From an uncultured Clostridia bacterium (lineage in GTDB: Bacteria > Bacillota > Clostridia > TANB77 > CAG-508), in NCBI GenBank assembly GCA_904381285.1, contig CAJFII010000011.1, forward strand, positions 275-64,274: a stretch of DNA of 64,000 bases, read 5' to 3'. Shown one piece after another: positions 2,113 through 21,963 of this stretch. Position 1 is the first letter of the stretch, and every line of letters begins with the position of its first letter. The notes beneath the pieces were generated by a model that saw only the letters and a list, made by a program, of their open reading frames with translations, ran no database searches and was not told the DNA's origin. A program made the position numbers and the translations under genes.

Positions 2113-4224
2113 ATGAAAAAAGTTAGAAAAAATCATGGAATCACATTAATTAGTTTAGTGGTTACAATTATTGTGTTGCTAATTTTAGCAGGAATTACTA
2201 TCAATATGTTGTTGGGGGATAACGGAATAATTACTATGGCTCAAAAAGCAAAAAACGAGTATGAAGAAGCTGTAAAAAAAGAGGAACAACAATTAGCAGG
2301 AATATTCGGAAAAAATTTTGCGGACTATAATGGGCAATTAAATGTTTTGGATGGACAACTTGTTAATCAATACAATGAAATAATAACATTAAAAGGATTA
2401 GTTGGAGATAATGTTTCACAATATTCAATTCATTACCAAGATAGCAAATCATTTAGCTACTATTTGAATCAAGAATCAATAAATAATTTAAAAAATTGGA
2501 ATGTAAATGTAATAAGGATAGGATTAGAAGTAGACGAGGTATCAGATGAAGAAAAAATGCAAGACTATTTAAATACTATTGATTTACTTGTAGATAATGA
2601 TATTTATGTAATAGCTCTTTTGTGGAACAGTGAAAACATAAATGATAACATAGAAATTGCACAACAATATTTCTCAACATTATCCGAAAAATATAATGAG
2701 ACAAATAATATTATCTATGAAATAGCTAATGAACCAAATATAGAGTGGAGTGAAATTATAAATTATTGTAATACAATAATTCAAACAATCAGGACTTATG
2801 ATAATGAGAATATTATTATTGTGCCAAATCCAAGTGCTGATTCTAGACCAGATTTAGTTGATATGAACGACTTAAATAATTCTTTTAATGTAATGACATC
2901 ATATCATATGTATGTAGGAAATCAGATTACAAGTGAAAGAATAAATTATTTAAATCAAGCAATAGAAAATAAAACACCAATATTTGTTACTGAATGGGGT
3001 ACAACTTTAAGCAACGGAAATGATGGATTCTATGAAGCAAGCTCTAATACTTTTATAACAATAATGAATAATTATAATTTAAGTTGGTGTAATTTTGCTT
3101 TAGTGGATTACAATTTTAGAGTCGGACAAGGTTATGGGCAAGATGAATATTCAGGAATAGTTCAACATAATAAATGGGATAATTCTTTAACAGATAATAT
3201 TTTAACTGCGAGTGGAAAATATATTAAAAGTATATTAACAGGAACATACAAAGAAAATAGAGAATACAGTGAAATGATTTCTAGAGATGATAATATAGCT
3301 TTTTGGCAGGAAGAATATAGAGATAATATTATGAGTATTGAATTTATAAAGGGAAATGAAGTCCCTGAAAATGCAATAATAAAGTGGGATATGTCAATTT
3401 TAAAAGATAATTCTATTCAAGCTTATATTATTAATGATAATGGTTATAGATTATGTATTATTAGTGATTATATTATTAAATTGCCACTTGATAGTGGAAC
3501 GATATTAAATTCAAATGGAGGTTTATTTCAAGATTTTACTAAAGCAACGGCAATTAAATTTTCTAATATAGATACAAGTCAGTGTAGAGATATTTCAGGC
3601 ATGTATAGAAATTGTAGTGAAGTGACTAATATTGAAGGATTAACGAAATTCGATACTAATAAAGTAGAATGGATGAGTGATATTTTTCTTGGGTGTAGAA
3701 ATTTACAAAATATAGATTTAACTGGTTGGGATACAAGTAATGTTAAACAGATAACAAATTTGTTTAGTGGATGTGAAAATCTAATTGAAATTAAAGGTAT
3801 AAATGAGTGGAACATAGATAATATAGAAACAGTCAATGCAGCATTTCAACAAACTCTTAGTATAAATTCAATTGATTTGTCAAATTGGAATACACCAAAT
3901 TTAATTAATTGTTATTATATGTTTAGTAACAATAAATCTAGTGTAATTGACATAAGAAACTTCGATATGAGTAATGTTACAAAAATGGATTATATGTTTA
4001 ACTTGACGTCAAATCTAGAAAATTTGTATATGAATAATGTAAATATAAATATAGATAATATAACTAGTTATGAAGGAATGTTTTATGGTATAAAAAATGG
4101 AGTTAATATATATGTAAAAAATGAGGAAATTGCTAAGTGGATATATGACAGAATAACTGAAGTAAATAAAACTGCTAATATATATTATGGTGAAGATAAT
4201 ATGATATTGTATGTGAGTGATTAG
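2113..4224 (+). CDS. surface protein: prepilin-like leader/anchor + GH5 glycoside hydrolase + BspA-type (DUF285-like) leucine-rich repeats
   Basis: N-terminus is MKKVRKNHG-ITLISLVVTIIVLLILAG. GH5 hallmarks are IIYEIANEPN (acid/base Glu) and PIFVTEWGT (nucleophile Glu). The C-terminal repeats carry WDTSNV, WNTPNL, FDMSNVTKMDYMF and FSGCENL motifs. Confidence 0.75.
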   Translation: MKKVRKNHGITLISLVVTIIVLLILAGITINMLLGDNGIITMAQKAKNEYEEAVKKEEQQLAGIFGKNFADYNGQLNVLDGQLVNQYNEIITLKGLVGDNVSQYSIHYQDSKSFSYYLNQESINNLKNWNVNVIRIGLEVDEVSDEEKMQDYLNTIDLLVDNDIYVIALLWNSENINDNIEIAQQYFSTLSEKYNETNNIIYEIANEPNIEWSEIINYCNTIIQTIRTYDNENIIIVPNPSADSRPDLVDMNDLNNSFNVMTSYHMYVGNQITSERINYLNQAIENKTPIFVTEWGTTLSNGNDGFYEASSNTFITIMNNYNLSWCNFALVDYNFRVGQGYGQDEYSGIVQHNKWDNSLTDNILTASGKYIKSILTGTYKENREYSEMISRDDNIAFWQEEYRDNIMSIEFIKGNEVPENAIIKWDMSILKDNSIQAYIINDNGYRLCIISDYIIKLPLDSGTILNSNGGLFQDFTKATAIKFSNIDTSQCRDISGMYRNCSEVTNIEGLTKFDTNKVEWMSDIFLGCRNLQNIDLTGWDTSNVKQITNLFSGCENLIEIKGINEWNIDNIETVNAAFQQTLSINSIDLSNWNTPNLINCYYMFSNNKSSVIDIRNFDMSNVTKMDYMFNLTSNLENLYMNNVNINIDNITSYEGMFYGIKNGVNIYVKNEEIAKWIYDRITEVNKTANIYYGEDNMILYVSD

Positions 4225-7274: not shown

Positions 7275-8240
7275 ATGATTGACTGTCATTACGATTTATT
7301 AACACATATACTTATGAAGAAAAATGAAAAAGAAGTACTTAAAAATTATTGTAATAGAGTATATAAAAAGGATAATATTACAGGAGGAATATTTAATCTT
7401 TTTTATATGACGGAACAAGAAATGAAGGAAGAAATAGGAATACAAAAAAGTCAAATTAATTTAATAGAGAATTTAAAAGAAGTAAAAAAATATATAGAAT
7501 CAAATCAACTTATATCAAATGATATAAAATATATATTTGGAATAGAAGGATTAGATTATTTAGAAAAAATAGAAGATATAGATGTACTATATAATTTAGG
7601 CTTAAGATCTACAAATCCAGTATGGAATAATCAAAATAAATTTGGCGGAGGAACTAGAGCGGATAATAAAGTTGGTTTAACTAGACTAGGAGAAAAATTA
7701 ATTGAAAAATTAGTAAAAAAGAAGATAGCAATAGATTTATCGCATGCAAATGAAAGGACTTTTTTTGATATTATAAATTTATGTAAAGAAATGAAAAAGC
7801 AAGGTGAAGAACCAATTGTTTTTGCATCACATTCAAACTCTAGAACATTATGTGATGTACCAAGAAATTTAACAGATGAACAAATAATAGCTATAAAGGA
7901 ATTAAATGGCGTAATAGGTGTTGTATCAATTAAAACTTTTTGTGTAAATACAAACGATATATGTAATCCCAATATAGATTATGAGCAAAAATATGTAGAA
8001 CATATAAACTATATAAAAAATTTGCTTGGTGGAGTGGATAATATATCTGTAGCAACAGATGATATGAAATACTATTATATTGAGCCTGAATATTATCAAA
8101 ATATTAATGTGTTTCCTCATTATAGTGTAAAAGAGAAACTTACTAAAGTATTAATAAAAAACAATTATGCAGAAAAAGAAATAAAAAAAATATTAGAAGA
8201 CAATTTTAAAGAAAAAATACTTTTTTTATTAATGTATTGA
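7275..8240 (+). CDS. membrane-dipeptidase (peptidase M19) family protein
   Basis: MIDCHYDLL start after GGGAGG. Contains GIEGLDYL, LGLRSTNPVWNNQNKFGGG, IDLSHANERTFFD and ASHSNSRTLCDVPRNLTDEQI. Confidence 0.7.
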   Translation: MIDCHYDLLTHILMKKNEKEVLKNYCNRVYKKDNITGGIFNLFYMTEQEMKEEIGIQKSQINLIENLKEVKKYIESNQLISNDIKYIFGIEGLDYLEKIEDIDVLYNLGLRSTNPVWNNQNKFGGGTRADNKVGLTRLGEKLIEKLVKKKIAIDLSHANERTFFDIINLCKEMKKQGEEPIVFASHSNSRTLCDVPRNLTDEQIIAIKELNGVIGVVSIKTFCVNTNDICNPNIDYEQKYVEHINYIKNLLGGVDNISVATDDMKYYYIEPEYYQNINVFPHYSVKEKLTKVLIKNNYAEKEIKKILEDNFKEKILFLLMY

Positions 8241-8317
8241 ATATAATTTTTTTTTAATATATAATCAGTCCAGAAATGTAATTAATATAATTAATGAACA
8301 AAAGATAGCTGTAAAAT

Positions 8318-8971
8318 ATGGGGGACAAAAAAATGCAAAAACAACTTAATGTAGATCAATTTATAAAATATTTTTTTTATGGATTAGAAAATAAAGATGA
8401 AATTGTAAAAGCAGTTATCGTAAATGTTGCAAGACAACGAGTTGGCACACATAATTCATTAGACGAATATACAGAAAAGATGAATTATGAAATTGATGCT
8501 GAATGTATGTTAAATTTAATTGTTCAATTAGAAAGATTTACTACATTACATGATGATCCTAATAATAGACATTATTTTTATCAAGATTTAGATATTAATT
8601 CACTATCTGTAAATCAAATGTTTAATAAAAATTTAAAGCAATTAAGCGAAAGAGGAGCTATAGTACCTTGTAGATATAGGCCTTTATCAGGAATTTATTA
8701 TGCGGACAGAAAATCACATTGGGAAGGTCAATTTACAGGAGAAGAAATGTACAATTTCTTAAAAAACAATTCTGCATGGGCTCAAGAAGAAGTTTATGGA
8801 ATATTAGTATATTTGGAAGAATTAGAACAAATTAATAAATTTCAATACTATTCTTTATTTATGGATTCAAAATATGCAAGGGCAATCGACCGTTATCAAA
8901 GAGGGATAACAAAAGATGAAAATGAAAAACGTGAAATTATAAAGGTATATAAAGAATTTTTAAAACGGTAG
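8318..8971 (+). CDS. hypothetical protein
   Basis: Long ORF with coding-like composition. An alternative ATG at 8333 follows a GGGGG RBS. No motif recognised. Confidence 0.45.
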   Translation: MGDKKMQKQLNVDQFIKYFFYGLENKDEIVKAVIVNVARQRVGTHNSLDEYTEKMNYEIDAECMLNLIVQLERFTTLHDDPNNRHYFYQDLDINSLSVNQMFNKNLKQLSERGAIVPCRYRPLSGIYYADRKSHWEGQFTGEEMYNFLKNNSAWAQEEVYGILVYLEELEQINKFQYYSLFMDSKYARAIDRYQRGITKDENEKREIIKVYKEFLKR

Positions 8972-9941: not shown

Positions 9942-9955
9942 AAGAGGTGAAATGA

Positions 9956-10966
9956 ATGCTAGATAAAAGAAAAAAGAAAATATTACAAGCTGTAATTGAT
10001 GAATATATAAATACAGCAGAGCCTGTTAGTTCAGGAACCTTAGTTAAAAAATATGGCTTAGATTATAGTAGTGCTACTGTAAGAAATGAACTTGCAGAAC
10101 TAGAGAATTTCGGTTATTTAGATAAACCACACACATCAGCTGGACGTGTTCCTTCTGAAAAAGGATATAGATTTTATGTGGATGAATTACTAAACGACCA
10201 AGATATTTCAATAGAAGAAATAAAATATATTCAATCAAAACTATCTACTAAAGTAAATGAAATTGAAGAATTAACAAAAATTACTTCATCAACAATATCA
10301 GAAATTACACATTATACTACAGTTGCAATTGGTCCAAAAGCAAATATGCAAATTATAGAAGAGATAAAATTCGTTCTTCTTGGTAGCAGAATGTTAATGG
10401 TAGTAATAGTTACTGATAATGGATTAGTAAAAGAAACAATAATTAAATACGATAAAGATATTACTGCTAGTCAAGTAGAAACATTAAATAATTTATTTAA
10501 TAGCAAACTAAAAGGAAAACCATTAAATAAAATTGATAAACCTATGGAAGAATATATATTATCAGAAATAACCTATAGTGTTGATGTAATAAAACCAATT
10601 ATAGAGCAAATAAATAAGGTAATTGATGAAGAAAATAAAATATACTTAGAAGGTGCTAATAAAGCGTTTGATTTACCAGAATTTAAGAGTCTAGAAATAG
10701 CAAAGAACTTTGTAAATATTCTAGATACAAAAGACTTAGTATTAGATATGCTAAATTCTGGAATTGCAAAAGACATAAATGTATATATTGGAGAAGAAAA
10801 CGATAATGAACAATTAAAAGATTTTAGTGTAGTAACTTTTAAACATTCAGTAGGTGATAAGGATTTAGGCACAATAGGAATTATAGGACCTAAAAGAATG
10901 GATTACTCTAAAGTAATTTCAGTCATGAAATATATTAGTAAAAAAATGAATGAAAAGGATATATAG
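9956..10966 (+). CDS. hrcA: heat-inducible transcription repressor HrcA
   Basis: N-terminal winged HTH (RKKKILQAVIDEYINTAEPVSSGTL), correct length, and position first in the hrcA-grpE-dnaK-dnaJ operon. Confidence 0.9.
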   Translation: MLDKRKKKILQAVIDEYINTAEPVSSGTLVKKYGLDYSSATVRNELAELENFGYLDKPHTSAGRVPSEKGYRFYVDELLNDQDISIEEIKYIQSKLSTKVNEIEELTKITSSTISEITHYTTVAIGPKANMQIIEEIKFVLLGSRMLMVVIVTDNGLVKETIIKYDKDITASQVETLNNLFNSKLKGKPLNKIDKPMEEYILSEITYSVDVIKPIIEQINKVIDEENKIYLEGANKAFDLPEFKSLEIAKNFVNILDTKDLVLDMLNSGIAKDINVYIGEENDNEQLKDFSVVTFKHSVGDKDLGTIGIIGPKRMDYSKVISVMKYISKKMNEKDI

Positions 10967-14838: not shown

Positions 14839-14883
14839 CTAGTCACATTTTTAGGATACTCCTAAAAATGTGACTAGTTTTTT
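14839..14883 (+). terminator. strong rho-independent terminator distal to dnaJ
   Basis: 18-bp perfect stem CTAGTCACATTTTTAGGA / TCCTAAAAATGTGACTAG, 3-nt loop, T6 tail. Confidence 0.85.
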
Positions 14884-15940
14884 GTGGTAAATTTATGTAA
14901 AAAAGTGATAATCAAAAAACGGGTAAAATATTGTAAATAAATGTATAAAAATATAGAATGTCAAAAGATAAAAAAAGGAGGAGAACAAAAGAATGAAAAA
15001 GAAAATATGTAAAGAAAAGAAAAAGCAAAAAACAACAAAAAACATGAATTTAACAATTAACAACAAGGGTATAACGTTGATAGCTTTAGTAATAACAATC
15101 ATAGTACTATTAATATTAGCAGGAGTAACAATAAGCCTAACACTAGGAGAAAATGGAATATTTAGAACAGCAGAAATGGCAGGAAGAAACTACACGCAAG
15201 CACAAGAGCAAGAAATAGCAGGGCTAGCAGAATTTCCTGAAAATTATGGAAAAAAAGTAGTAGGCTATAGTTCAAAAAGTGAATCAGGATACACCGGAGA
15301 TTGGAGATTATTTTATCAAGACGCAGAGTATACCTATATAATAATGGATGGAGTAACAGGAAGTTATAAACCAAGCGATTATTATACAACAGTACAAAAA
15401 GAAGATGGAACACTAAAATATCAAACAGGAGCAGATGTTTCTGAAGTGGGACAAAACTTAAGTAGTATGTTAAAAACAAATGGAACATTTTTTGTAGAAG
15501 ATAATGATAATGAAAATATAAGAACAACAGCATGGTTAACAGATACAGAATATTGGGAAGATTATACAGATGAAGAAGGAAATGCACTATTTGCAATAGC
15601 AAGTCCGACAGTAGAGTTATATGTAGCATCATTTAATGCAACAGCACCATCGAATGGAGTAGAAGAGTTTAAACTAGAAGTGTTTTCCTTGGGATATGAT
15701 ACAACGCCAAGTAAATTAAGTATAAGTTATAATAATGGAATATATAACTATAGCGAATCAAGCAATTGGTGGATTTCTTCGCCTAGTAGCGATCTCTATT
15801 CTACAGATGAGCTTTATATAGACGGTCAGTATTCTAGCAACTATATATTATACAATAGCGTTACGGGATATTATTGTGCGGTTCGCCCAATAGTTTGTAT
15901 TCCAACATCTACATTCCAAGAAACATACTCTTTGCAATAA
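14853..15940. repeat. left copy of a ~1.1-kb direct repeat (promoter region + pilin-leader gene)
   Basis: Aligns by hand with 20833-21931 (offset ~5980 nt), mostly ~90% identical. Identity starts inside the 3' arm of the terminator hairpin. Confidence 0.85.
14993..15940 (+). CDS. pilin-leader protein with WWxSP...VRPIVCIP C-terminal module (intact paralogue)
   Basis: AGGAGG RBS. Lys-rich leader, then KG-ITLIALVITIIVLLILAGVTI and GENGIFRTAEMAG. The C-terminal NWWISSP...CAVRPIVCIPTS resembles the DUF1566-like WWxSP / VRP signature. Confidence 0.7.
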   Translation: MKKKICKEKKKQKTTKNMNLTINNKGITLIALVITIIVLLILAGVTISLTLGENGIFRTAEMAGRNYTQAQEQEIAGLAEFPENYGKKVVGYSSKSESGYTGDWRLFYQDAEYTYIIMDGVTGSYKPSDYYTTVQKEDGTLKYQTGADVSEVGQNLSSMLKTNGTFFVEDNDNENIRTTAWLTDTEYWEDYTDEEGNALFAIASPTVELYVASFNATAPSNGVEEFKLEVFSLGYDTTPSKLSISYNNGIYNYSESSNWWISSPSSDLYSTDELYIDGQYSSNYILYNSVTGYYCAVRPIVCIPTSTFQETYSLQ

Positions 15941-16162
15941 GATAAAAATTATGTAAATATGTAAACTATACTAATTTCTATAAGTAAAATTATAGATAAT
16001 TTGTATAGTTTTTTCTTTGCTAAAAATTAGCTTGAATAAATAGCTACAAAAAGATTTTTTCCTACAAACAATTTAGTGAAAATTATAAATTTTCAAATAT
16101 CTAGTTATAGAAAAATATAAAATGATGTATAGAAGAATAAAAACGATAGACGACATAAAAAG

Positions 16163-16191
16163 TTGCGCAGAAAGGAAAATTATGTTATAAT
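16163..16191 (+). promoter_or_regulatory. sigma-A-type promoter of the vWA/AAA+ cassette
   Basis: TTGCGC, 17-nt spacer, then TGtTATAAT (extended -10), ~55 nt upstream of the first ATG. Confidence 0.6.
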
Positions 16192-16246
16192 ATTTGAGGT
16201 TTAATATAAAAATGAAATTATCATAAAATCATAAAAAGGAATTTGT

Positions 16247-17137
16247 ATGAAAAAGAAGAGAGTATTTTATGTTCTAGAAAGTTTTTTGAAATCTAATGAG
16301 AGTAGTAATAATCAACAAACAGAAACATCTATATTTAGTGATAGTTTATCAATAGATAGTGAGAGTACAAGAAAAAATATAGATACAAGTGATGAACTAC
16401 AAATTACTGATGCGCAAAAAAAACGAAGACAAAAATGGATAGATGAATTGCAGGGAAAGAAAAATAAAGATGACAAAAAAATAAAAGAGATTGAACCTAT
16501 AGGGAATTTATATAATAGAAGTGAAGATAAAGAAGTTTCAAACATAACACCTTTTAATATTGATCAAGGTAATTTAAAAGGTAAATTTGATTTTTCTTTT
16601 TCTGTGAGAGGAAAGAAAATATCAATTCAACAATCAGACGATTTAAATGCTAATGAAAGTGATATGCAAACATCTTCACAAGGTCAATCAGGATTACAAC
16701 AAGAGGGCAGAAATAATGGAAGCAATATGCAAGGACAACAAAGAACCGAACAAGATTCAAATAATCCGAGTAATGGAGAGCCACAAAATAATCCTGTTAA
16801 ACAACTATTTAGCGAATTAGATAAGATAAGTGAAAGTATAGACAAAGGACACGGCTTTGCATTAAGTCCATTTAAAATAGAAGATGGACAAGTACCAGAT
16901 AGTATTATAAATATGTTAATAGATAAATTTTTAAATCAAAGGTTTTTACCAACAACCACTGATTTAAACACCAGAAGAAATAGTTTTAACCCAGATTATG
17001 GAGATTTAGAATGGAATATTCCAGATTTGGTAAGGCATAAAGTTACAAAGGATTTAAACAAAATGCTATATGATAAATACGGATTTAATGACGAAGATGG
17101 GAAACGGAGAAGATATACCATTTTCATTCTATTTTGA
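16247..17137 (+). CDS. hypothetical protein with Q/N/S-rich low-complexity centre, possibly the N-terminal part of the following vWA protein
   Basis: No TM or recognisable motif. SSQGQSGLQQEGRNNGSNMQGQQRTEQDSNNPSNGEPQNNP tract. The last ~14 codons (KRRRYTIFILF) look like out-of-frame read-through into the next ORF. Confidence 0.5.
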   Translation: MKKKRVFYVLESFLKSNESSNNQQTETSIFSDSLSIDSESTRKNIDTSDELQITDAQKKRRQKWIDELQGKKNKDDKKIKEIEPIGNLYNRSEDKEVSNITPFNIDQGNLKGKFDFSFSVRGKKISIQQSDDLNANESDMQTSSQGQSGLQQEGRNNGSNMQGQQRTEQDSNNPSNGEPQNNPVKQLFSELDKISESIDKGHGFALSPFKIEDGQVPDSIINMLIDKFLNQRFLPTTTDLNTRRNSFNPDYGDLEWNIPDLVRHKVTKDLNKMLYDKYGFNDEDGKRRRYTIFILF

Positions 17138-17660
17138 TTTATCTGGAAGTATGGAACAATATTCTAGATTACTTTCACTCATAGCTATTAAGTTAATTAG
17201 AAAGGATGTAAAGGTATTATTTGGTTATAATGAGGAAATTTATTACCAAATAGATAGTGTGCCTAAAACTTTTACAGCAAAAGATTTTAAGAGAATAATA
17301 TCAGAAAGTTTATCATATCAGAAAATAATATCTGATGTACGATATAGAAACATCAAGATAAAACAAGTAAATGAAAATATAAATACATATTTAAGAGAGA
17401 AAAAAGCAAAAAAGTTAACTGTATTCTCTGATTTTGACGCAAAAAAAGAAATTGAAGACTTATCAAAAGATTGCGAAATATGGTGGTTTTGCTTTGAACA
17501 AAGAAGTCATTATAGGTCTACATCTATGGAAAATTTTAAAGGACATTTCTATAATACTGCAAAATTAGAAGATTTTATAAAGCATTTAAAAAATGTGAGT
17601 AGTAGAGTATACGAGAAAAAGCAGAGAAATATGAGAAGTGGAGGATTGGAACGTGAATAA
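17070..17660 (+). CDS. von Willebrand factor type A (vWA) domain protein
   Basis: MIDAS DxSxS in IPFSFYFDLSGSM, followed by alternating helix/strand segments and KLTVFSDFD. Overlaps the previous ORF by 68 nt (alternative ATGs at 17088 and 17097). Confidence 0.65.
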   Translation: MINTDLMTKMGNGEDIPFSFYFDLSGSMEQYSRLLSLIAIKLIRKDVKVLFGYNEEIYYQIDSVPKTFTAKDFKRIISESLSYQKIISDVRYRNIKIKQVNENINTYLREKKAKKLTVFSDFDAKKEIEDLSKDCEIWWFCFEQRSHYRSTSMENFKGHFYNTAKLEDFIKHLKNVSSRVYEKKQRNMRSGGLERE

Positions 17661-17967
17661 ACCAACAGGAAATTTAAGAGATTTAATTATATTATGTAAT
17701 AATAATATAAAAGGATTAACTAAAAGGGAAGAAATAAAAAAATATATACCTATTGAATGTGAAAAAATTAGTATAGAAGAAGATAATAACAAATTAGTAT
17801 TTAAACAAGATAATGTAATTATAAAAAATGTGTGGATTGATACAAATTGTTATTCAAATTTAGAAATACTTAAAGTTATTGCACAAATATATAATATAGA
17901 GTTTAAAAGTGAGGAAATTTTAGAACTAATTAAATTTAAAAATAAGATAGTATTAATGTTATTATAA
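17653..17967 (+). CDS. small hypothetical protein (~105 aa), translationally coupled
   Basis: GTG at 17653 lies 8 nt after GGAGG and overlaps the vWA stop (GTGAATAA). The ORF track lists 17638. No motif recognised. Confidence 0.5.
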   Translation: MNKPTGNLRDLIILCNNNIKGLTKREEIKKYIPIECEKISIEEDNNKLVFKQDNVIIKNVWIDTNCYSNLEILKVIAQIYNIEFKSEEILELIKFKNKIVLMLL

Positions 17968-17982
17968 AGGAGAAGAGAATTA

Positions 17983-20070
17983 ATGGATATATCATATCAA
18001 AGTATTAAAGAAAAGATGGAACAATATGGTTACTTTGCAGAAGATGAATTAATTTGGCAAACTTATATTAATATACAAAATCTTATAAATGATGGGCAAG
18101 TTGGACAAGACATTCATGCAATATGTCTAGAAGGACCTCCTGGAGCAGGTAAAACAGAATATGCTAAAATATATAGAAAAGTATTAAAAGATTTTGTACA
18201 AGATGATGTAGAATTAATAGATTATCAATGCGATTCAACAACAGGAAAATCGGATTTATATGAAGAAATAAGAGTTGCTGCAGCCATTGCAGGTAATCCA
18301 GACGAGGTAATAATTGCAGGTAAATTAGTAGAAGCAATAGATTCAGTAAATGCAGGAAAAAAAGTAATATTATTCCTTGATGAATATGATAAGGCTAGAG
18401 AAGAAACAGATGCATTTTTATTAAAATTCTTACAAGAAGGAAGGATTAATACAACCCAAAGAGGTGATGTGGAAATAAAACCAGAGAACATGCAAAATCT
18501 GCAGGTTATATTATGCAAAAACCAAATGAGAGAAGAATTATCTGGACCACTTGAAAGAAGAGTGAAAATATTAAGATTAAAAGAAATGAGACCAGAAGTA
18601 TTCTTTAAAGTTGCTAGTAATCAATTACCTAATGCAGATAAAGATGTAATTAATGCAGTATCTATTTTATATGGTGCTATCTATGATAATAAAGAAGATT
18701 TTGCAAGAATACCTGCTTGTTCAGAAGGATTATTAGCTATAAGAGATGCGTGTACCTTATTAAAAGCAAATGCACCAGAAGAATTTGTATATAGTGCTAT
18801 TATTTCAAACATGCTAAAAAATCCAGATGATATAGAAACTTTTAGAAGCCTACTAGGGCAAGATGAAAGATTGTCAGCATTTTTTAAAGCATCTTGTAAT
18901 TTAAGCAAAATTTCAGACATTTCTGAGGCTGAAATTGCTAGAAGGGAAATATTATCACAATTTTTCTCTGATGATATAAAAAGAGTTTCCGAAGATATTG
19001 AGAGAGCAAATAGACTATTAACTGAATCAGACCACGAAAGAAGCTATCTAGAAAAAAGAATAGATGAACAAAGTGCTACGATTAGTGATAAAGATAAAAC
19101 AATAGAAAAGCAAAGAAGATATATTGAACAATTATTAGCTGAAAGTAAGACTGATAAAAGAGATATATCACTTTTTGAAAGAAGAGATAGTGTAGAAGAT
19201 ATTTCAGATATGCTTAAAGAAGAAACAAGCAGTGGTGATAATAATGGAGTAGAAATGCCTGTATTTATACAAGTTGGAGAAGAGCATAAATTTGTTCAAC
19301 AGGATGAAATAGGAGGCCAAATATTATCTGTACCTGGAACTAAAGATGAAAGGGTACATTTATCAGAAAGTATATTTGACCAAGAATATGATATATTACA
19401 AAAATTTGGTTATATTACTATACAATCTTATAATGGTGGAACAAAATTAGAAGATATGACTGATTGGAACCTAAATCATGTTGGATTAGGATTAAAAGTT
19501 ATGAAGGACAATCCTACTGCTAAACTTTATAGCGATGGAATTATATTATATGATAAAGATGACGTGATAATTGGAGCGACAAGAGTATTTGAAGAAACCG
19601 AAAGAATAGGAGAAACAGGAAGTGAAGAAAAAGGTTCAAGATGTAGATATAAGCTATTTACTAATAGATTAGTTTTACCGATTTATGCATTAGATTCGGT
19701 TGCAGGATTTATGAAACAATGTTATAAACAAGGAAGTACAAATAATTATGGAGGAACATATATTAATTGTATTGTATCAGCAGATAAGCAAAAGGATGTA
19801 AAAGAAGAAGATGATTATGGCAGATATTTCTATTGTACTCCATTAAAGGATAATATTTATCACATTACATATGAAAATTATAGAAATGATTTAGAAGATA
19901 CAGGTATAGAGCTTCAAAAAAGAATAGCAACGAGTGAATATGACGATTATATGAGAGCAGAACTATTAAGAATAGCTAACTCTAGAGAAAGACAAATGCT
20001 TCAAACAGGCCAACTTACTCCAAAATCATCACAATATATAAAGCCATTGGAAAGTCAAGAAGAGAGATAA
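17983..20070 (+). CDS. MoxR-like (AAA_5-type) AAA+ ATPase with coiled coil and an unknown ~300-aa C-terminal region
   Basis: Walker A is LEGPPGAGKTEYA and Walker B is VILFLDEYDKA. LLKFLQEGRI corresponds to the MoxR LLEAMxE helix. PLERRV also present. Heptad-rich ERANRLLTESDHERSYLEKRIDEQSATISDKDKTIEKQRRYIEQLL. RBS is AAGGAG. Confidence 0.75.
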   Translation: MDISYQSIKEKMEQYGYFAEDELIWQTYINIQNLINDGQVGQDIHAICLEGPPGAGKTEYAKIYRKVLKDFVQDDVELIDYQCDSTTGKSDLYEEIRVAAAIAGNPDEVIIAGKLVEAIDSVNAGKKVILFLDEYDKAREETDAFLLKFLQEGRINTTQRGDVEIKPENMQNLQVILCKNQMREELSGPLERRVKILRLKEMRPEVFFKVASNQLPNADKDVINAVSILYGAIYDNKEDFARIPACSEGLLAIRDACTLLKANAPEEFVYSAIISNMLKNPDDIETFRSLLGQDERLSAFFKASCNLSKISDISEAEIARREILSQFFSDDIKRVSEDIERANRLLTESDHERSYLEKRIDEQSATISDKDKTIEKQRRYIEQLLAESKTDKRDISLFERRDSVEDISDMLKEETSSGDNNGVEMPVFIQVGEEHKFVQQDEIGGQILSVPGTKDERVHLSESIFDQEYDILQKFGYITIQSYNGGTKLEDMTDWNLNHVGLGLKVMKDNPTAKLYSDGIILYDKDDVIIGATRVFEETERIGETGSEEKGSRCRYKLFTNRLVLPIYALDSVAGFMKQCYKQGSTNNYGGTYINCIVSADKQKDVKEEDDYGRYFYCTPLKDNIYHITYENYRNDLEDTGIELQKRIATSEYDDYMRAELLRIANSRERQMLQTGQLTPKSSQYIKPLESQEER

Positions 20071-20082
20071 ATAAGTATAAAG

Positions 20083-20112
20083 AACCACCGCCCTTAATTC
20101 AGAGCGGTGGTT
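20083..20112. terminator. GC-rich bidirectional terminator between convergent genes
   Basis: AACCACCGC / GCGGTGGTT stem with a 12-nt loop, between the stops at 20070 (+) and 20134 (-). Confidence 0.65.
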
Positions 20113-20133
20113 AGTTGTGTTTTGAAAAGCTTT

Positions 20134-20748
20134 TTATTCTTCGTGAGGAACAATGGTAGTATTTCCATCACCGATGAAATGACTGCCAATGATATATGCT
20201 CCCATAAAGTTACCGAAGGTAAGCAATGCAGTATCGATTTCTTTTGCCTGTTCTTCATCAAGCGTGCCGTCCATACGAGCTTTTTCGAGAGCATCGAATC
20301 CGGGAAACAGACCAGTTTCATGTTCAAACCATCCACCATTGTTCTCAATATACTCCACTGCAGGACTGATTTTCTTCATAATGTCCTGAAACTGCAAGAA
20401 AAGGAATTTAATATTGAGTTTAATCTCAAACGTTTCTTCCTCGCCTTCAATAGGGTTAATAGAGATAGGTTTCTGGTTTTCCAGAACTGTTTCAATTACT
20501 TTCTCGATTTCTTCGCAACATTTTTCCCGTCCATCGTTGCTTTGAAATGTGATTGGCGTCAAGAGTATTGAACCATCCATGCCGAAAGCAGGATTGTGCC
20601 AAATCTTGCCACCATTCTTCATTACAGTTTGAATTACAAACAGAAGAAGCCGTTCTCCACAACTAGGTGGAATAGTGATATCGGTGACGATAGTGCCATC
20701 ACTGAATCCGCCTCCGATAGTCTGATGATGTTTACAGTAGTTGCTCAT
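20134..20748 (-). CDS. hypothetical protein (204 aa), compositionally foreign
   Basis: The ATG at 20748 follows AAGGAGG. The ORF track's longer form starts at an upstream TTG. Clearly higher G+C and many G/C-ending codons compared with all neighbours. No motif recognised. Confidence 0.6.
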   Translation of the reverse strand: MSNYCKHHQTIGGGFSDGTIVTDITIPPSCGERLLLFVIQTVMKNGGKIWHNPAFGMDGSILLTPITFQSNDGREKCCEEIEKVIETVLENQKPISINPIEGEEETFEIKLNIKFLFLQFQDIMKKISPAVEYIENNGGWFEHETGLFPGFDALEKARMDGTLDEEQAKEIDTALLTFGNFMGAYIIGSHFIGDGNTTIVPHEE

Positions 20749-20797
20749 ATGCAAATTCCTCCTTTTATCTTGGACAATGCCAATAATTACAATATGT

Positions 20798-20826
20798 ATT
20801 ATAGCATTAAATTGAAGCAATTGCAA
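20798..20826 (-). promoter_or_regulatory. near-consensus promoter for the foreign gene
   Basis: Minus strand reads TTGCAA, 17-nt spacer, then TGcTATAAT. Confidence 0.6.
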
Positions 20827-20832
20827 ACATTA

Positions 20833-21931
20833 TGGTAACTTATAAAAATGTGACTAGTGTTTTGTGTTAAATTTATGTAAAAAAGTGATAATTAAAAAAC
20901 AGGTAAAACATTGTAAATAAATGTATAAAAATATAAAATATCAAAAGATAAAAAAGAGGAGGACCACAAAAGAATGGAAAAGAAAATAAGTAAAGAAAAG
21001 AAAAAGCAAAAAAACAAGAAAAATATGAATTTATCCAATAACAACAAGGGTATAACATTGATAGCTCTAGTTATAACTATCATCGTATTATTAATATTAG
21101 CAGGAGTAACAATAAACCTAACACTAGGAGAAAATGGAATATTTAGAACAGCAGAAATGGCAGGAAGAAACTACACGCAAGCACAAGAGCAAGAAATAGC
21201 AGGGCTAGCAGAATTGAGAAGCAATAAATCCTGGAGATTATGGAAAAAAAGTAGTAGGCTATAGTTCAAAGAGTGAATCAGGATATACAGGAGAATGGAG
21301 ATTATTTTATCAAGATGCAGAGTATACTTATATAATAATGGATGGAGTAACAGAAGATTATAAACCAAGTGATTATTATACAACAGTGCAAAAAGAAGAT
21401 GGAACACTAAAATACCAAACAGGGGCAGATGTTTGTGAGGTAGGACAAAATTTAAATAATATGTTAAAAACAAATGGAACATTTTTTGTAGAAGATAATG
21501 CTAATACTAACATACGAGCAACAGCATGGTTAACAGATACAGAATATTGGGAAGATTATACAGATGAAGCAGAAAATGCAATATTTGCAATAGCAAGTCC
21601 AACAGTGGAATTATATGTAGCATCATTTAATGCAACAGCACAAACAAATGGAGCAGAAGAGATAACATTAGGAGTAGGAACAAATGGATATACACAGAAT
21701 ACAACAACTAATCAATTAAGTACAAGTTATAATAATGGAATATATAACTATAGTAGTAGCAGTTATTGGTGGCTTGCTTCGCCTCGCCACAACAATGCTA
21801 GCAGTGAACTTGGTGTGGGCGTCTATTGCGGCTATTTCTACGACCGCAATGTTGCGAACAATTCTAATGCGATTCGTCCAATAGTTTGTATTCCAACATC
21901 TAAATTCCAAACAGCATATACACTGGAATAG
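20833..21931. repeat. right copy of the ~1.1-kb direct repeat
   Basis: See 14853-15940. Only the 3' arm (AAAAATGTGACTAG) of the hairpin is present here. Confidence 0.85.
20974..21931 (+). pseudogene. frameshifted paralogue of the pilin-leader gene 14993..15940
   Basis: The N-terminal 80 aa are near-identical to the left copy. The frame breaks around 21210-21225, giving two ORFs (20974..21264 and 21338..21931). The downstream frame (EAINPGDYGKKVVGYSSKSESGYTGEWRLFYQDAEY...) matches the intact copy. Confidence 0.8.
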
Positions 21932-21963
21932 ACTAATACTATATAAAAAACATACAAAAACTT

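What the first reader, a model, noticed from the sequence alone, without database searches (positions are those of the whole stretch)
16163..20112. Self-contained vWA / small protein / MoxR-like AAA+ cassette between dnaJ and gap: candidate undescribed conflict (defence-type) system
A tightly packed, co-directional cassette sits between the heat-shock operon (dnaJ stop 14765) and the glycolytic operon (gap start 22071). It has its own near-consensus promoter (TTGCGC-17-TGtTATAAT) and a GC-rich terminator. Its four parts are as follows. (i) 16247-17137, 296 aa, with a Q/N/S-rich low-complexity centre and no TM. (ii) 17070-17660, a vWA fold with MIDAS DxSxS (FYFDLSGSM). (iii) A ~105-aa protein with no recognisable motif, whose GTG start overlaps the vWA stop. 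(iv) 17983-20070, 695 aa: MoxR/AAA_5-like ATPase (GPPGAGKT, LFLDEYD, LLKFLQEGRI), a heptad-rich coiled coil (roughly aa 320-395) and about 300 C-terminal residues I cannot assign. MoxR+vWA pairs are known as chaperone/activase pairs (RavA-ViaA, CbbQ-CbbO, NorQ-NorD, BchI-BchD). They also occur in computationally predicted NTP-dependent vWA-MoxR-VMAP ternary conflict systems. This cassette differs from those pairs in four ways: vWA comes first, the third partner is tiny, the ATPase carries a long coiled-coil/C-terminal extension, and no client enzyme is adjacent. It does not resemble PrkA-YhbH-SpoVR either. It sits in a visibly plastic spot, bracketed by 1.1-kb direct repeats and next to a compositionally foreign gene.
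Basis: partly seen in the sequence, partly recalled or inferred. Interest (0 to 1): 0.8.

Follow-up and report, generated by a model that had tools for sequence, protein, structure and literature searches.

The report
Mobile MoxR-type ATPase / vWA gene cassette
A 4.7-kb gene cassette, present in only some strains of an uncultured gut Clostridia species, encodes an unannotated family of MoxR-type protein-remodelling ATPase with its vWA partner and a small helper protein; it is a new variant of a known machine, its client is unknown, and a role in phage defence is possible but not shown.

Summary
The cassette is real, but its anatomy differs from the description. Parts (i) and (ii) are one gene. 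Relatives encode a single 405-470-aa protein with a low-complexity N-terminus, a conserved linker and a C-terminal minimal vWA/MIDAS domain. Here it is split by a 1-nt insertion (C at 17105). That insertion is shared by at least 7 protein clusters, and both halves remain under purifying selection. The core is therefore three genes: vWA-like, a ~104-aa protein and a 695-aa ATPase.

The ATPase N-domain is a MoxR-class AAA+ (Pfam AAA_5; best Foldseek hits NorQ and CbbQ). A coiled coil and an unassignable C-terminal domain follow. In every family locus except one unresolved (L067), the vWA-like gene lies directly upstream of the ATPase. The third partner varies: a small protein, or Ank/LRR_5 repeat proteins.

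The conserved DNA unit spans 16153-20840 and includes the reverse 204-aa gene. It has identical sharp ends in four different genomic contexts. Strains with an identical DnaJ lack it. No recombinase, terminal inverted repeat or target duplication was found.

No component matches PADLOC, VMAP-type or phage families. Defence neighbours are occasional. Verdict: a new variant of MoxR-vWA remodelling systems, accessory and mobile. The defence role is unproven.

The parts
16153..20840 (.). Conserved 4.69-kb unit with sharp ends (ACATAAAAAGTTGC ... ATTATGGTAACT)
   Evidence: blastn finds the same start and end nucleotides in L010, L007 and L015 at 84-93% identity, with unrelated flanks. No TIR or TSD was found.
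16163..16191 (+). Promoter-like site TTGCGC-17-(TGt)TATAAT at the left end of the unit
   Evidence: Read from the sequence. TTGCnn-17-TGnTATAAT is conserved in all four contexts. It falls below the generic scan threshold.
16247..17137 (+). N-terminal part of the vWA-like gene: low-complexity region plus conserved linker (IPDSxINxLIxKFLNQRF...KWNIxDLxxHKVTK...DKYG). It ends in a 10-aa out-of-frame tail.
   Evidence: It aligns to the N-terminal 60% of intact 405-470-aa homologues. dN/dS is 0.28 against L010.
17096..17108 (+). Frameshift site GAT GGG AAA C GGA. The extra C is at 17105, and an ATG in frame with the vWA domain is at 17097.
   Evidence: Intact relatives read GGA AAA GGA (DGKGED). 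The insertion is shared by L010-L014 and by clusters P0140-P0144, P0151 and P0152. CGG accounts for 2 of 13,426 codons.
17097..17660 (+). Minimal vWA/MIDAS domain part of the same gene (FYFDLSGSM; FSDFDA; WWFCFE)
   Evidence: S, G, S and M of the DxSGSM motif are invariant in 28 homologues and the D is conserved in at least 90%. In the AF2 model of the intact homologue P0121, residues 247-421 are confident. The best Foldseek hits are vWA folds, but weak. dN/dS is 0.16.
17653..17967 (+). Small 104-aa protein. Its GTG start overlaps the vWA stop, and GGAGG lies 8 nt upstream.
   Evidence: It is conserved in type-A loci. There are 22 representative clusters, all about 100-120 aa. No Pfam or PDB match was found.
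17983..18882 (+). ATPase aa 1-300: MoxR-class AAA+ module with lid
   Evidence: Pfam AAA_5 at 3.9e-11. Foldseek matches NorQ at E 1e-10 with TM 0.75, and CbbQ. tblastn matches plasmid-borne genes annotated 'MoxR family ATPase' at 24-27% identity. Catalytic residues are invariant.
18925..19155 (+). ATPase aa 315-391: coiled-coil stalk
   Evidence: AF2 predicts helices at 315-327 and 329-391. phmmer gives weak matches to the Sec2 coiled coil.
19318..20022 (+). ATPase aa 446-680: family-specific alpha/beta C-terminal domain, fold not assigned
   Evidence: pLDDT is mostly 70-90. The domain is shared by type-A and type-B ATPases. No Pfam or PDB sequence match was found.
20083..20112 (.). GC-rich hairpin between the convergent genes (terminator-like)
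20134..20748 (-). 204-aa protein of unknown function with higher GC. It is a passenger within the unit, not a core partner.
   Evidence: It travels with the unit in L007, L010 and L015. Homologues at 50-56% identity stand alone beside housekeeping genes.
20798..20826 (-). Promoter-like site TTGCAA-17-TATAAT for the 204-aa gene, at the right end of the unit
   Evidence: conserved in four contexts
14863..15957 (+). Flanking repeat copy 1: prepilin-leader/DUF6273 gene
20843..21947 (+). Flanking repeat copy 2: a paralogous gene, disrupted in this window. It starts 3 nt after the end of the unit.

Best explanation
The locus is a discrete, strain-variable, horizontally moving 4.7-kb cassette. It encodes a previously unannotated family of MoxR-class AAA+/vWA protein-remodelling machines.

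Shown:
- The 695-aa protein has a catalytically intact MoxR-type AAA+ module.
- Its obligate neighbour is a protein with a disordered, mostly acidic/polar N-terminus, a highly conserved linker and a C-terminal minimal vWA domain with an intact DxSxS MIDAS motif.
- A lineage-specific third protein completes the set: the ~104-aa protein here, and Ank or LRR_5 repeat proteins in the sister architecture.

Inferred, by analogy with NorQ-NorD and CbbQ-CbbO:
- The ATPase forms a hexamer.
- The vWA protein docks on it through the vWA domain and its conserved C-terminal tail.
- The MIDAS site holds an acidic residue of a client.
- ATP hydrolysis pulls on the conserved linker of the vWA protein and so remodels or releases the client.
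- The C-terminal domain of the ATPase, held on a coiled-coil stalk, together with the small, Ank or LRR partner, supplies client specificity.

In this lineage the vWA gene carries an old 1-nt insertion. It is probably still expressed, either as two polypeptides or by +1 frameshifting.

The biological role is accessory. I rate a conflict or defence-type role as the single most likely one (about 0.35-0.4), but it is not demonstrated.
For: Molecular identity:
- Pfam AAA_5 matches at 43.6 bits against a cutoff of 22.
- The AF2 model best matches NorQ and CbbQ, at E 1e-10 and TM 0.75.
- Walker A and B, the sensor-1 Asn and the RR pair are invariant.
- DSSP of the model shows short strands (94-96, 110-112) within the helix-2 region and a strand pair (154-157, 161-164) before the sensor-1 strand. 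I read these as the helix-2 insert and pre-sensor-1 hairpin of the MoxR/dynein clade (my interpretation).
- The MIDAS motif is near-invariant and the confident part of the partner model gives vWA-fold hits.

Gene linkage:
- The vWA-like gene is immediately upstream of the ATPase in every family locus examined except L067, where none was detected in the 980 nt available. This holds across uncultured Bacilli and Clostridia.
- Start and stop codons overlap between the genes.
- A distant phage-borne pair has the same two proteins.

Accessory and mobile nature:
- The unit ends are identical in four different contexts.
- The unit is absent from strains with an identical DnaJ.
- Other family members lie next to TnpV/Mob_Pre, a serine recombinase, Rpn/IS200 genes, or a variable PP2C/giant-kinase block.

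Still functional:
- dN/dS is 0.16-0.28 for both halves of the frameshifted gene between two lineages that both carry the frameshift.

Mechanistic template:
- The NorQD structures show a vWA finger in the AAA+ pore, a C-terminal tail contact and linker remodelling (PMC13036017).
Against: - No client is identified.
- Hexamer formation, vWA docking and MIDAS function are all inferred.
- vWA assignment is weak at both sequence and fold level (Foldseek E no better than 1e-3).
- The folds of the ATPase C-terminal domain and of the small protein could not be assigned.
- No recombinase or recombination site explains the mobility.
- The frameshift could mean that the vWA partner is impaired in this strain.
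Confidence: 0.65

Rival explanations
1. It is a dedicated anti-phage or anti-plasmid defence system. The MoxR-vWA pair licenses or releases an effector after sensing an invader, and the small, Ank or LRR proteins act as sensors.
For: - The cassette is strain-variable and mobile.
- The N-terminus of the vWA protein and the C-terminus of the ATPase diversify quickly.
- The sister architecture is linked to repeat proteins of a sensor-like kind: Ank, and giant LRR_5 proteins in which I saw no obvious N-terminal signal sequence.
- Some neighbours hit PADLOC models: PDC-S73, PDC-S01 with SoFic, HerA, an AriA/PtuA-like ATPase, and a PP2C/vWA-like/giant-kinase block inserted right beside a type-A cassette.
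- There is a computational precedent for MoxR-vWA conflict systems (PMC7159879).
Against: - No component matches any PADLOC v2 model beyond generic AAA or Ank similarity.
- No nuclease, protease, TIR, pore-forming or nucleotide-signalling domain was found.
- No VMAP, iSTAND, FtsH or beta-propeller component was found.
- Defence-like neighbours occur in only about 5 of 20 loci, which without a control is not clearly above background.
- The window, L007 and L010 contexts are housekeeping.
- No phenotype data exist.
Confidence: 0.35
2. It is a client-specific chaperone or assembly factor, like CbbQO or NorQD. Its clients would be repeat proteins (giant LRR_5/BspA-type or Ank proteins) or other lineage-specific proteins, so it would be an accessory proteostasis module rather than immunity.
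For: - All characterised MoxR-vWA pairs are maturation or activase chaperones encoded beside their client.
- In type-B loci, giant LRR_5 genes, a conserved 'GEHYGF' repeat protein and an Ank protein form a conserved neighbourhood with the pair (L004, L021, L055, L064, L068).
- In this species the cassette lies in a hotspot that in other strains holds LRR_5/DUF285 genes.
Against: - Type-A cassettes, including the window, have no conserved neighbour beyond the three genes.
- LRR_5/DUF285 genes appear to be numerous in these genomes, so adjacency could be chance. This was not quantified.
- An accessory cassette that changes genomic context is unusual for a client-linked chaperone.
Confidence: 0.25
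3. It is cargo of a mobile element and serves the element itself, for example in maintenance or addiction, anti-defence, or transfer-related remodelling.
For: - The unit has sharp ends and lies in several different contexts.
- Family members lie beside TnpV/Mob_Pre and a Tn916-like integrase module, a serine recombinase and Rpn/IS200 genes.
- A distant homologous pair is present in a 79.6-kb viral contig.
Against: - The unit itself carries no recombinase, relaxase, TIR or att-like repeat.
- No close family member was found in 50,697 phage records, 72,556 plasmid records or IMG/VR.
- Several loci are flanked only by housekeeping genes.
Confidence: 0.15
4. In this strain the cassette is a decaying remnant, because the vWA gene is a frameshifted pseudogene.
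For: A 1-nt insertion splits the gene. The adjacent pilin-like paralogue is also disrupted.
Against: - The same insertion is shared by at least 7 protein clusters whose low-complexity regions have diverged.
- Both ORFs stay open.
- dN/dS is 0.16-0.28 between two lineages that both carry the frameshift, like the ATPase at 0.21.
- An in-frame ATG (17097) and a rare-codon +1 shift site both offer routes to expression.
Confidence: 0.07

Closest known systems
NorQ-NorD and CbbQ-CbbO (MoxR AAA+ of the CbbQ/GvpN/NorQ group with vWA partners)
   Same: The AAA+ module is the best structural match (Foldseek E 1e-10, TM 0.75). An adjacent partner protein carries a linker and a C-terminal vWA/MIDAS domain. 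The likely mechanism is the same: the hexamer remodels the partner's linker or the client.
   Different: - Sequence identity is only 12-17%.
- Gene order is vWA first.
- The ATPase carries a coiled coil and a roughly 235-aa extra domain.
- The vWA domain is minimal (about 175 aa) and invisible to Pfam.
- A third small, Ank or LRR partner is present.
- No NOR or Rubisco client is adjacent.
- The cassette is accessory and mobile.
MoxR-vWA-centric ternary conflict systems (VMAP, iSTAND, FtsH and beta-propeller types; Kaur et al. 2020, PMC7159879)
   Same: A MoxR plus vWA core with a third conserved component, variable parts and a patchy, accessory distribution.
   Different: - No VMAP-C, iSTAND, FtsH or propeller component is present.
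- The vWA domain is C-terminal with no effector domains after it.
- The hosts are reduced-genome gut Firmicutes, not the multicellular Actinobacteria or Cyanobacteria where those systems predominate.
- No Pfam bpMoxR, VMAP or TCAD hits were found for the cassette proteins.
RavA-ViaA
   Same: A MoxR ATPase with a C-terminal extension plus a vWA partner encoded in one operon.
   Different: In my recollection of the family, RavA is named for its LARA domain; nothing with that name was reported among the Pfam matches. Gene order is opposite. No link to LdcI or Frd is seen.
Midasin/Rea1 and BchD/ChlD
   Same: AAA_5-type motor chemistry is combined with an acidic disordered region followed by a MIDAS domain.
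   Different: Those are single giant or fused polypeptides with known clients (pre-60S particles, protoporphyrin). Here the parts are separate small proteins and the client is unknown.
PrkA-YhbH-SpoVR
   Same: A three-gene AAA-like/vWA-like cassette in Firmicutes.
   Different: No families matching PrkA, DUF444 or SpoVR by name were reported. Order and sizes differ. The cassette is not restricted to spore formers.

Membership tests
MoxR-class AAA+ ATPases | AAA+ core with intact Walker A, Walker B, sensor 1 and arginine finger | tested here: met
   GPPGAGKT, LDEYD, the CKN Asn and the RR pair are invariant in 24 homologues.
MoxR-class AAA+ ATPases | Sequence-profile match to the AAA_5/MoxR group above threshold | tested here: met
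   Pfam AAA_5 at 43.6 bits against a cutoff of 22. tblastn hits to annotated 'MoxR family ATPase' genes cover 92% of the module at 24-27% identity. Only 42 bits against a 475-bit cutoff for NCBIfam MadB, so it is not that family.
MoxR-class AAA+ ATPases | Fold closest to solved MoxR members, with the helix-2 insert and pre-sensor-1 hairpin | tested here: met
   The top Foldseek hits are NorQ and CbbQ. DSSP shows strand pairs at 94-96/110-112 and at 154-157/161-164, which I read as the two inserts.
MoxR-class AAA+ ATPases | Adjacent vWA-domain partner gene | tested here: met
   The partner is directly upstream in every family locus except L067, where none was detected in the 980 nt available.
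MoxR-class AAA+ ATPases | Placement in a named MoxR subfamily (MRP, RavA, CGN, TM0930, and so on) by phylogeny | not tested
   No tree was built. No Pfam AAA_3 or RavA-specific hit was seen.
vWA / MIDAS domain | Profile match to a vWA family (VWA, VWA_2, VWA_3, VWA_CoxE) | tested here: not met
   No Pfam, NCBIfam or PDB-sequence hit was found, even with a 28-sequence profile.
vWA / MIDAS domain | DxSxS MIDAS motif after the first strand, plus a downstream acidic residue after a hydrophobic strand | tested here: met
   S256, G257, S258 and M259 are invariant. D254, D352 and D354 are conserved in at least 90% of sequences.
vWA / MIDAS domain | Rossmann-like alpha/beta vWA fold | tested here: inconclusive
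   The confident model covers 247-421. Foldseek hits are mostly vWA folds (TFIIH p44 and p34, 4fx5, INTS13/14, NorD), but only at E 1e-3 to 3e-2 and with high rmsd, because the whole model including disordered parts was searched.
vWA-MoxR ternary conflict systems (Kaur 2020) | Third conserved component: VMAP (VMAP-C), iSTAND, FtsH-type ATPase, or a beta-propeller fused to vWA | tested here: not met
   The Pfam scan of all products gives no such family. The third protein is 104 aa and belongs to its own 22-cluster family.
vWA-MoxR ternary conflict systems (Kaur 2020) | Variable effector domains C-terminal to the vWA domain | tested here: not met
   The vWA domain is at the C-terminus. Only a roughly 20-aa tail follows it.
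Known anti-phage defence systems (PADLOC-DB v2) | Component proteins match a system's HMMs | tested here: not met
   Only weak generic hits were found: PDC-M37B at 5e-5 on the P-loop region, and PDC-M72A at 2.7e-15 for the Ank partner of the type-B architecture, over Ank repeats.
Known anti-phage defence systems | Statistical enrichment in defence islands | tested here: inconclusive
   Strong PADLOC hits occur among neighbours in about 5 of 20 loci. No matched control was possible.
Known anti-phage defence systems | Protection phenotype | not testable with these tools
   This needs an experiment.
Transposon / integron cassette / integrative element | Own recombinase, terminal inverted repeats, target-site duplication or attC-like site | tested here: not met
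   No such gene is in the unit. No TIR was found. No shared flank or duplication appears at four junction pairs.
PrkA-YhbH-SpoVR | PrkA AAA, DUF444 and SpoVR domains | tested here: not met
   No families matching these names were reported.

The most novel reading that the evidence does not exclude
This is the founding member of an undescribed family of MoxR-vWA-based conflict systems of gut Firmicutes. Interchangeable specificity modules (a small protein, a GNAT-small fusion, Ank, and giant LRR_5 proteins that appear cytoplasmic) direct an ATP-driven MIDAS machine against invaders. The cassette moves as a recombinase-free unit. In one clade the vWA subunit is produced through a conserved +1 frameshift at AAA-CGG, next to the rarest codon of the genome.
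Probability: 0.25. Interest if true: 0.8.

Novelty: new variant of a known kind. Interest (0 to 1): 0.5.

Why it matters
MoxR-vWA pairs are widespread, yet only a handful have a known client. This family has more than 300 ATPase clusters at 90% identity in public data, almost all from uncultured gut Bacilli and Clostridia. Neither the vWA-like nor the small protein has any Pfam family or informative name.

It adds a compact architecture to the known range: a minimal vWA domain, an ATPase carrying a stalk and an extra domain, and swappable small, Ank or LRR partners. The pair behaves as accessory, mobile DNA.

If it proves to be an immune or conflict system, it would extend MoxR-vWA immunity from multicellular bacteria to reduced-genome gut Firmicutes. 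If it is a chaperone, the conserved giant LRR_5 neighbours would be the first candidate clients of that kind.

The conserved frameshift offers a simple test case for either a split vWA adaptor or +1 recoding in a low-GC Firmicute.

Tried and rejected
- **Profile scans.** Pfam, NCBIfam, PHROGs and PADLOC were run on all products. Only generic AAA hits came back.
- **MadB lead.** The NCBIfam MadB hit (42 bits against a cutoff of 475) was followed in the literature. Nothing relevant was found.
- **PDB sequence searches.** The ATPase was searched as a single sequence; profile searches covered the vWA-like family, the ATPase C-terminal domain and the small protein. There were no significant hits.
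- **Foldseek on the ATPase model.** Both the PDB and viral libraries returned lists filled by the AAA+ module, so the C-terminal domain stayed unassigned.
- **Pfam on C-terminal domains.** Fourteen divergent C-terminal domains were scanned for a recurrent weak family. None recurred.
- **Small protein versus Ank partner.** hhalign gave no relation, with probability 0.1%.
- **The 204-aa reverse gene as a core partner.** Rejected, because 50-56% homologues stand alone elsewhere.
- **TerY-P identity of the PP2C/vWA-like/kinase block beside a sister cassette.** No PADLOC match beyond the kinase domain.
- **Phage or plasmid origin.** No close relatives were found in the phage, plasmid or IMG/VR collections. 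Only a distant phage pair turned up.
- **Terminal inverted repeats and target duplications at the unit ends.** None found.
- **Exact empty site.** None was recovered. Instead, the dnaJ-gap interval holds alternative cargo in other strains.
- **Programmed +1 frameshifting.** Considered but not adopted. Cluster P0144 has R instead of K before the shift (AGA rather than AAA is my inference), which weakens a specific slippery site.

Full report
**1. What is in the sequence**

The four co-directional ORFs exist as described: 16247-17137, 17070-17660, 17638-17967 and 17983-20070. They lie between dnaK-dnaJ and gap-pgk, in DNA of about 30% GC.

The promoter-like site TTGCGC-17-TGtTATAAT is at 16163-16191. 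The generic scan does not list it, because its -35 hexamer matches only 3 of 6 positions. In this AT-rich DNA such scans find no more sites than chance would give (26 found against 30 expected). However, TTGCnn-17-TGnTATAAT is conserved at the same position in four otherwise unrelated contexts.

A hairpin with a 12-bp stem and 7 GC pairs lies at 20083-20112, between the ATPase gene and a convergent 204-aa gene. The small gene most likely starts at GTG 17653, with GGAGG 8 nt upstream. That start overlaps the stop codon of the preceding gene.

**2. Parts (i) and (ii) are one gene**

Relatives encode a single protein of 405-470 aa whose sequence runs ...HKVTKDLxKMxYDKYGxxxxDGKGEDIPLSFYFDLSGSM.... 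The window reads GAT GGG AAA C GGA GAA GAT, whereas intact genes read GGA AAA GGA GAA GAT. The extra base is the C at 17105.

The insertion is not a sequencing error. It appears in independent assemblies (L010-L014). N-terminal fragments ending ...DEDGKRRRYTI(F/L)ILF occur in at least seven 90%-identity clusters whose low-complexity regions differ by substitutions and indels. L007, whose ATPase is 86% identical, reads GGA AAC GGA. This looks like a secondary 1-nt deletion that restored the frame with a K-to-N change.

Between two lineages that both carry the frameshift (window and L010), dN/dS values are:

| Gene or part | dN/dS |
|---|---|
| vWA-like gene, N-terminal part | 0.28 |
| vWA-like gene, vWA part | 0.16 |
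| small protein | 0.26 |
| ATPase | 0.21 |

The split gene is therefore still under purifying selection. Two routes to expression are visible:

- An ATG at 17097 is in frame with the vWA part.
- The shift site is AAA followed by CGG. CGG is among the rarest codons of the window (2 of 13,426 codons; CGC is rarer still at 1), and one of the two CGG codons is this site. A +1 slip there would reproduce the ancestral DGKGED sequence exactly.

I treat recoding as a lead only, because cluster P0144 has R in place of K before the shift.

**3. The ATPase**

- Pfam gives AAA_5 at 3.9e-11. No other domain is found.
- More than 300 homologous clusters exist. The first ~300 residues are 50-57% identical across the family, while the rest varies.
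- Walker A, Walker B, the sensor-1 Asn and an RR pair are invariant.
- The AlphaFold model has mean pLDDT 70.6. It is higher over residues 1-300 and 470-675. It shows an AAA+ module with lid. Short strands interrupt the helix-2 region and a strand pair precedes the sensor-1 strand; I read these as the inserts typical of the MoxR/dynein clade. Then come a long helix (329-391), a disordered stretch (391-445) and an alpha/beta domain.
- Foldseek ranks NorQ (E 1e-10, TM 0.75 on the target) and CbbQ first.
- The nearest annotated sequences in the plasmid collection are 'MoxR family ATPase' genes at 24-27% identity.

The 'MoxR-like' call is therefore supported. The C-terminal domain is shared by both architectures of the family. 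It has no Pfam or PDB-sequence match. Its fold could not be isolated, because whole-model Foldseek lists are filled by AAA+ hits.

**4. The vWA-like partner**

No profile library or PDB sequence search recognises it. The family alignment shows three regions:

- a hypervariable low-complexity N-terminus rich in acidic and polar residues, which makes total protein lengths range from about 360 to 750 aa;
- a strongly conserved segment of about 75 residues that AlphaFold leaves mostly unstructured;
- a C-terminal domain of about 175 residues with S256, G257, S258 and M259 invariant, D254 conserved in at least 90% of sequences, and near-invariant FSDFD and WFCFE motifs.

The model of the intact homologue P0121 is confident only for residues 247-421. 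Foldseek hits are weak (E 1e-3 to 3e-2). Most of them are nevertheless vWA folds: TFIIH p44 and p34, a bacterial vWA protein (4fx5), INTS13/14 and NorD itself. I accept a minimal vWA/MIDAS domain as the best reading and mark the fold test as inconclusive.

**5. Linkage and architectures**

In all 26 loci scanned first, the vWA-like gene lies immediately upstream of the ATPase, often overlapping it. The enlarged scan of 39 loci (about 24 distinct) agreed, except for L067, where no vWA-like gene was detected in the 980 nt upstream of the ATPase and I did not resolve why. The loci come from uncultured Clostridia, Bacilli and Erysipelotrichaceae MAGs. Two architectures exist.

- **Type A** (the window, L001, L007, L010, L015, L016, L017, L023, L057): vWA-like, then a ~100-118-aa protein, then an ATPase of 670-790 aa.
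- **Type B** (L004, L018, L020, L021, L055, L066, L068): vWA-like, then an ATPase of ~590 aa, then an Ank-repeat protein of about 240 aa. Variants carry short LRR_5 or LRR_5-Ank proteins (L022, L025), or ten LRR-like paralogues (L053).

L064 carries all the parts. Its small-protein domain is fused to a GNAT acetyltransferase, and an Ank gene is also present.

Type-B loci repeatedly include two more neighbours. One is a divergent set of one or two giant LRR_5 proteins (1000-1270 aa); I saw no obvious signal sequence at their N-termini, but no predictor was run. The other is a small repeat protein with a GEHYGF motif.

The small protein of type A belongs to a narrow family of 22 representative clusters, all about 100-120 aa. 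It has no detectable relatives of known function.

**6. The cassette is a discrete, accessory unit**

blastn of the window against L010, L007 and L015 gives homology that begins at 16153 and ends at 20840 in every case, at 84-93% identity. The flanks are completely unrelated:

| Locus | Flanking genes |
|---|---|
| window | dnaJ / gap |
| L010 | accD-accA-recJ-relA |
| L007 | a cell-wall hydrolase / trxB |
| L015 | an XRE regulator / membrane protein |

The unit contains two convergent transcription units. Each starts about 10-14 nt inside an end with a promoter-like site. The second unit is the 204-aa, higher-GC gene. That gene is a passenger, because homologues at 50-56% identity stand alone next to housekeeping genes in other Clostridia.

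The unit has no recombinase, terminal inverted repeat or target duplication.

Within the species, strains encoding an identical DnaJ carry different genes between dnaJ and gap. L137 and L138 have an LRR_5/DUF285 protein, a GH5 cellulase and a DUF285 protein. All variants share a conserved 5' module of about 370 bp that encodes a prepilin-type leader. This module is also the core of the 1.1-kb direct repeats that bracket the cassette here. The interval is thus a recombination hotspot, and the cassette is strain-variable.

Other family members lie in similarly variable settings:

- beside TnpV/Mob_Pre, downstream of a Tn916-like integrase module (L144);
- next to an 8.7-kb indel carrying PP2C, a DxSxS protein and a 1565-aa kinase (L145);
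- near a serine recombinase (L055);
- near Rpn/IS200-type genes (L021, L024).

**7. Defence?**

No cassette protein of either architecture matches a PADLOC model beyond generic P-loop or Ank similarity. No VMAP, iSTAND, FtsH or propeller component of the published MoxR-vWA ternary systems is present, and the vWA protein lacks C-terminal effector domains. No close homologue occurs in phage, IMG/VR or plasmid collections.

A distant pair does occur in a 79.6-kb viral contig. It consists of a 460-aa ATPase followed by a 320-aa protein with an N/Q-rich N-terminus and a DTSGS motif.

Among 117 neighbouring ORFs from 17 loci, strong PADLOC hits are singletons: HerA, SoFic with PDC-S01, PDC-S73, and mad3/mad8-like ATPases. 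Together with the kinase block, this amounts to about 5 of 20 loci. Without a matched control this does not demonstrate enrichment. Three of the four contexts of the window's own unit are purely housekeeping. No effector-type domain was recognised anywhere in type A.

**8. How it most likely works**

*Shown:* an intact MoxR-type motor, an obligate MIDAS partner with a conserved linker and tail, translational coupling of the genes, purifying selection, and accessory, mobile behaviour.

*Inferred from NorQ-NorD* (a vWA finger in the pore, a C-terminal tail on the post-sensor-1 loop, and ATP-driven remodelling of the partner's linker; PMC13036017): the hexameric ATPase engages the vWA protein. 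The MIDAS site holds an acidic residue of a client. ATP hydrolysis remodels or releases that client. The stalk-borne C-terminal domain, together with the small, Ank or LRR partner, selects the client.

My estimates for the biological role are:

| Role | Estimate |
|---|---|
| conflict or defence-type | about 0.35-0.4 |
| chaperone for repeat proteins | about 0.25 |
| function serving a mobile element | about 0.15 |
| decay | under 0.1 |

**9. Comparison and novelty**

By AAA+ fold and gene pairing, this is a MoxR-vWA system. It is not a member of the NorQD/CbbQO, RavA-ViaA, BchID or PrkA-YhbH-SpoVR families, nor of the VMAP-type ternary systems. The defining third components, clients or domains of those families were tested and are absent.

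No paper in the searched library describes it. Public names are only 'AAA family ATPase' or 'hypothetical protein'.

I classify it as a new variant of a known kind. It is of moderate interest: a large, unannotated, mobile family in gut Firmicutes with an unknown client. The added curiosity is a conserved frameshift that is still under purifying selection.

Noticed in passing
window 17096-17108 (extra C at 17105): A 1-nt insertion splits the vWA-like gene. It is shared by at least 7 protein clusters, yet both halves keep dN/dS of 0.16-0.28. The shift site is AAA followed by CGG, one of only 2 CGG codons among 13,426. A +1 slip would restore the ancestral DGKGED sequence. An in-frame ATG lies at 17097. 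L007 appears to have reverted by deleting one A, giving a K-to-N change.
   Followed up: partly
window 14863-15957 and 20843-21947; L137 11381-15011: The dnaJ-gap interval is a strain-variable hotspot. It is built from genes that share a 5' module of about 370 bp encoding a prepilin-type leader (N_methyl) with different C-terminal cargo: DUF6273 here, and LRR_5/DUF285 plus a GH5 cellulase in strains with an identical DnaJ.
   Followed up: partly
window 20974-21264 plus 21338-21931, and 14993-15940: The downstream pilin-like paralogue is disrupted in the window (96-aa and 197-aa ORFs) but intact (342 aa) in the near-identical contig L011. The upstream copy is 28 aa shorter than in L011 (315 against 343 aa). 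This suggests indels in a repetitive stretch.
   Followed up: no
window 20134-20748 (- strand): A 204-aa protein with 38-41% GC in a 30% GC genome, Cys/His-rich (CKHH, PPSCGE, KCCEE), and with no family assignment. It travels inside the unit, but distant homologues are solitary genes in other Clostridia.
   Followed up: yes
L004 1179-10519; L021 1540-10452; L055 1798-12571; L064 186-9677; L068 1-12659: Type-B relatives sit in a conserved larger neighbourhood: one or two giant LRR_5 proteins with no obvious N-terminal signal sequence (divergent), a small repeat protein with a GGEHYGF motif, the vWA-like gene, the ATPase and an Ank-repeat protein. L053 instead has ten tandem LRR-like paralogues downstream.
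   Followed up: partly
L064 6392-7093: The small-protein domain occurs fused to a GNAT acetyltransferase (Acetyltransf_1, 4.7e-11) in a locus that also keeps the Ank partner. It is the only enzymatic domain seen attached to a cassette component.
   Followed up: partly
L049 9998-12339 (IMG/VR UViG_3300023440_000003): A 79.6-kb viral contig encodes a distant homologous pair in the opposite order: a 460-aa ATPase, then a 320-aa protein with an N/Q-rich N-terminus, a DTSGS MIDAS motif, and FTDFDA and YWFSSE motifs.
   Followed up: partly
L145 1151-9862 versus L144 9857/9863: An 8.7-kb block (weak PP2C hit, two unknown proteins, a 236-aa DxSxS protein and a 1565-aa protein kinase) is inserted directly upstream of an otherwise identical type-A cassette. 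A SpoIIID-like gene and TnpV lie downstream in both loci; Mob_Pre is visible only in L144, because the L145 contig ends first. It resembles TerY-P in composition, but PADLOC matches only the kinase domain.
   Followed up: partly
L026, L030, L082 (Acidobacteriota/Terriglobia MAGs), ATPase at about 7950-8880 or 9953-10867: The most distant hits are MoxR-like ATPases of about 305 aa (24-27% identity), embedded in conserved operons of membrane proteins and unknown proteins.
   Followed up: no
window 2113-4221: A 703-aa protein combines a prepilin-type leader with a GH5 cellulase and DUF285 repeats. This suggests that surface enzymes in this organism are displayed or secreted through a pseudopilin-type signal.
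   Followed up: no
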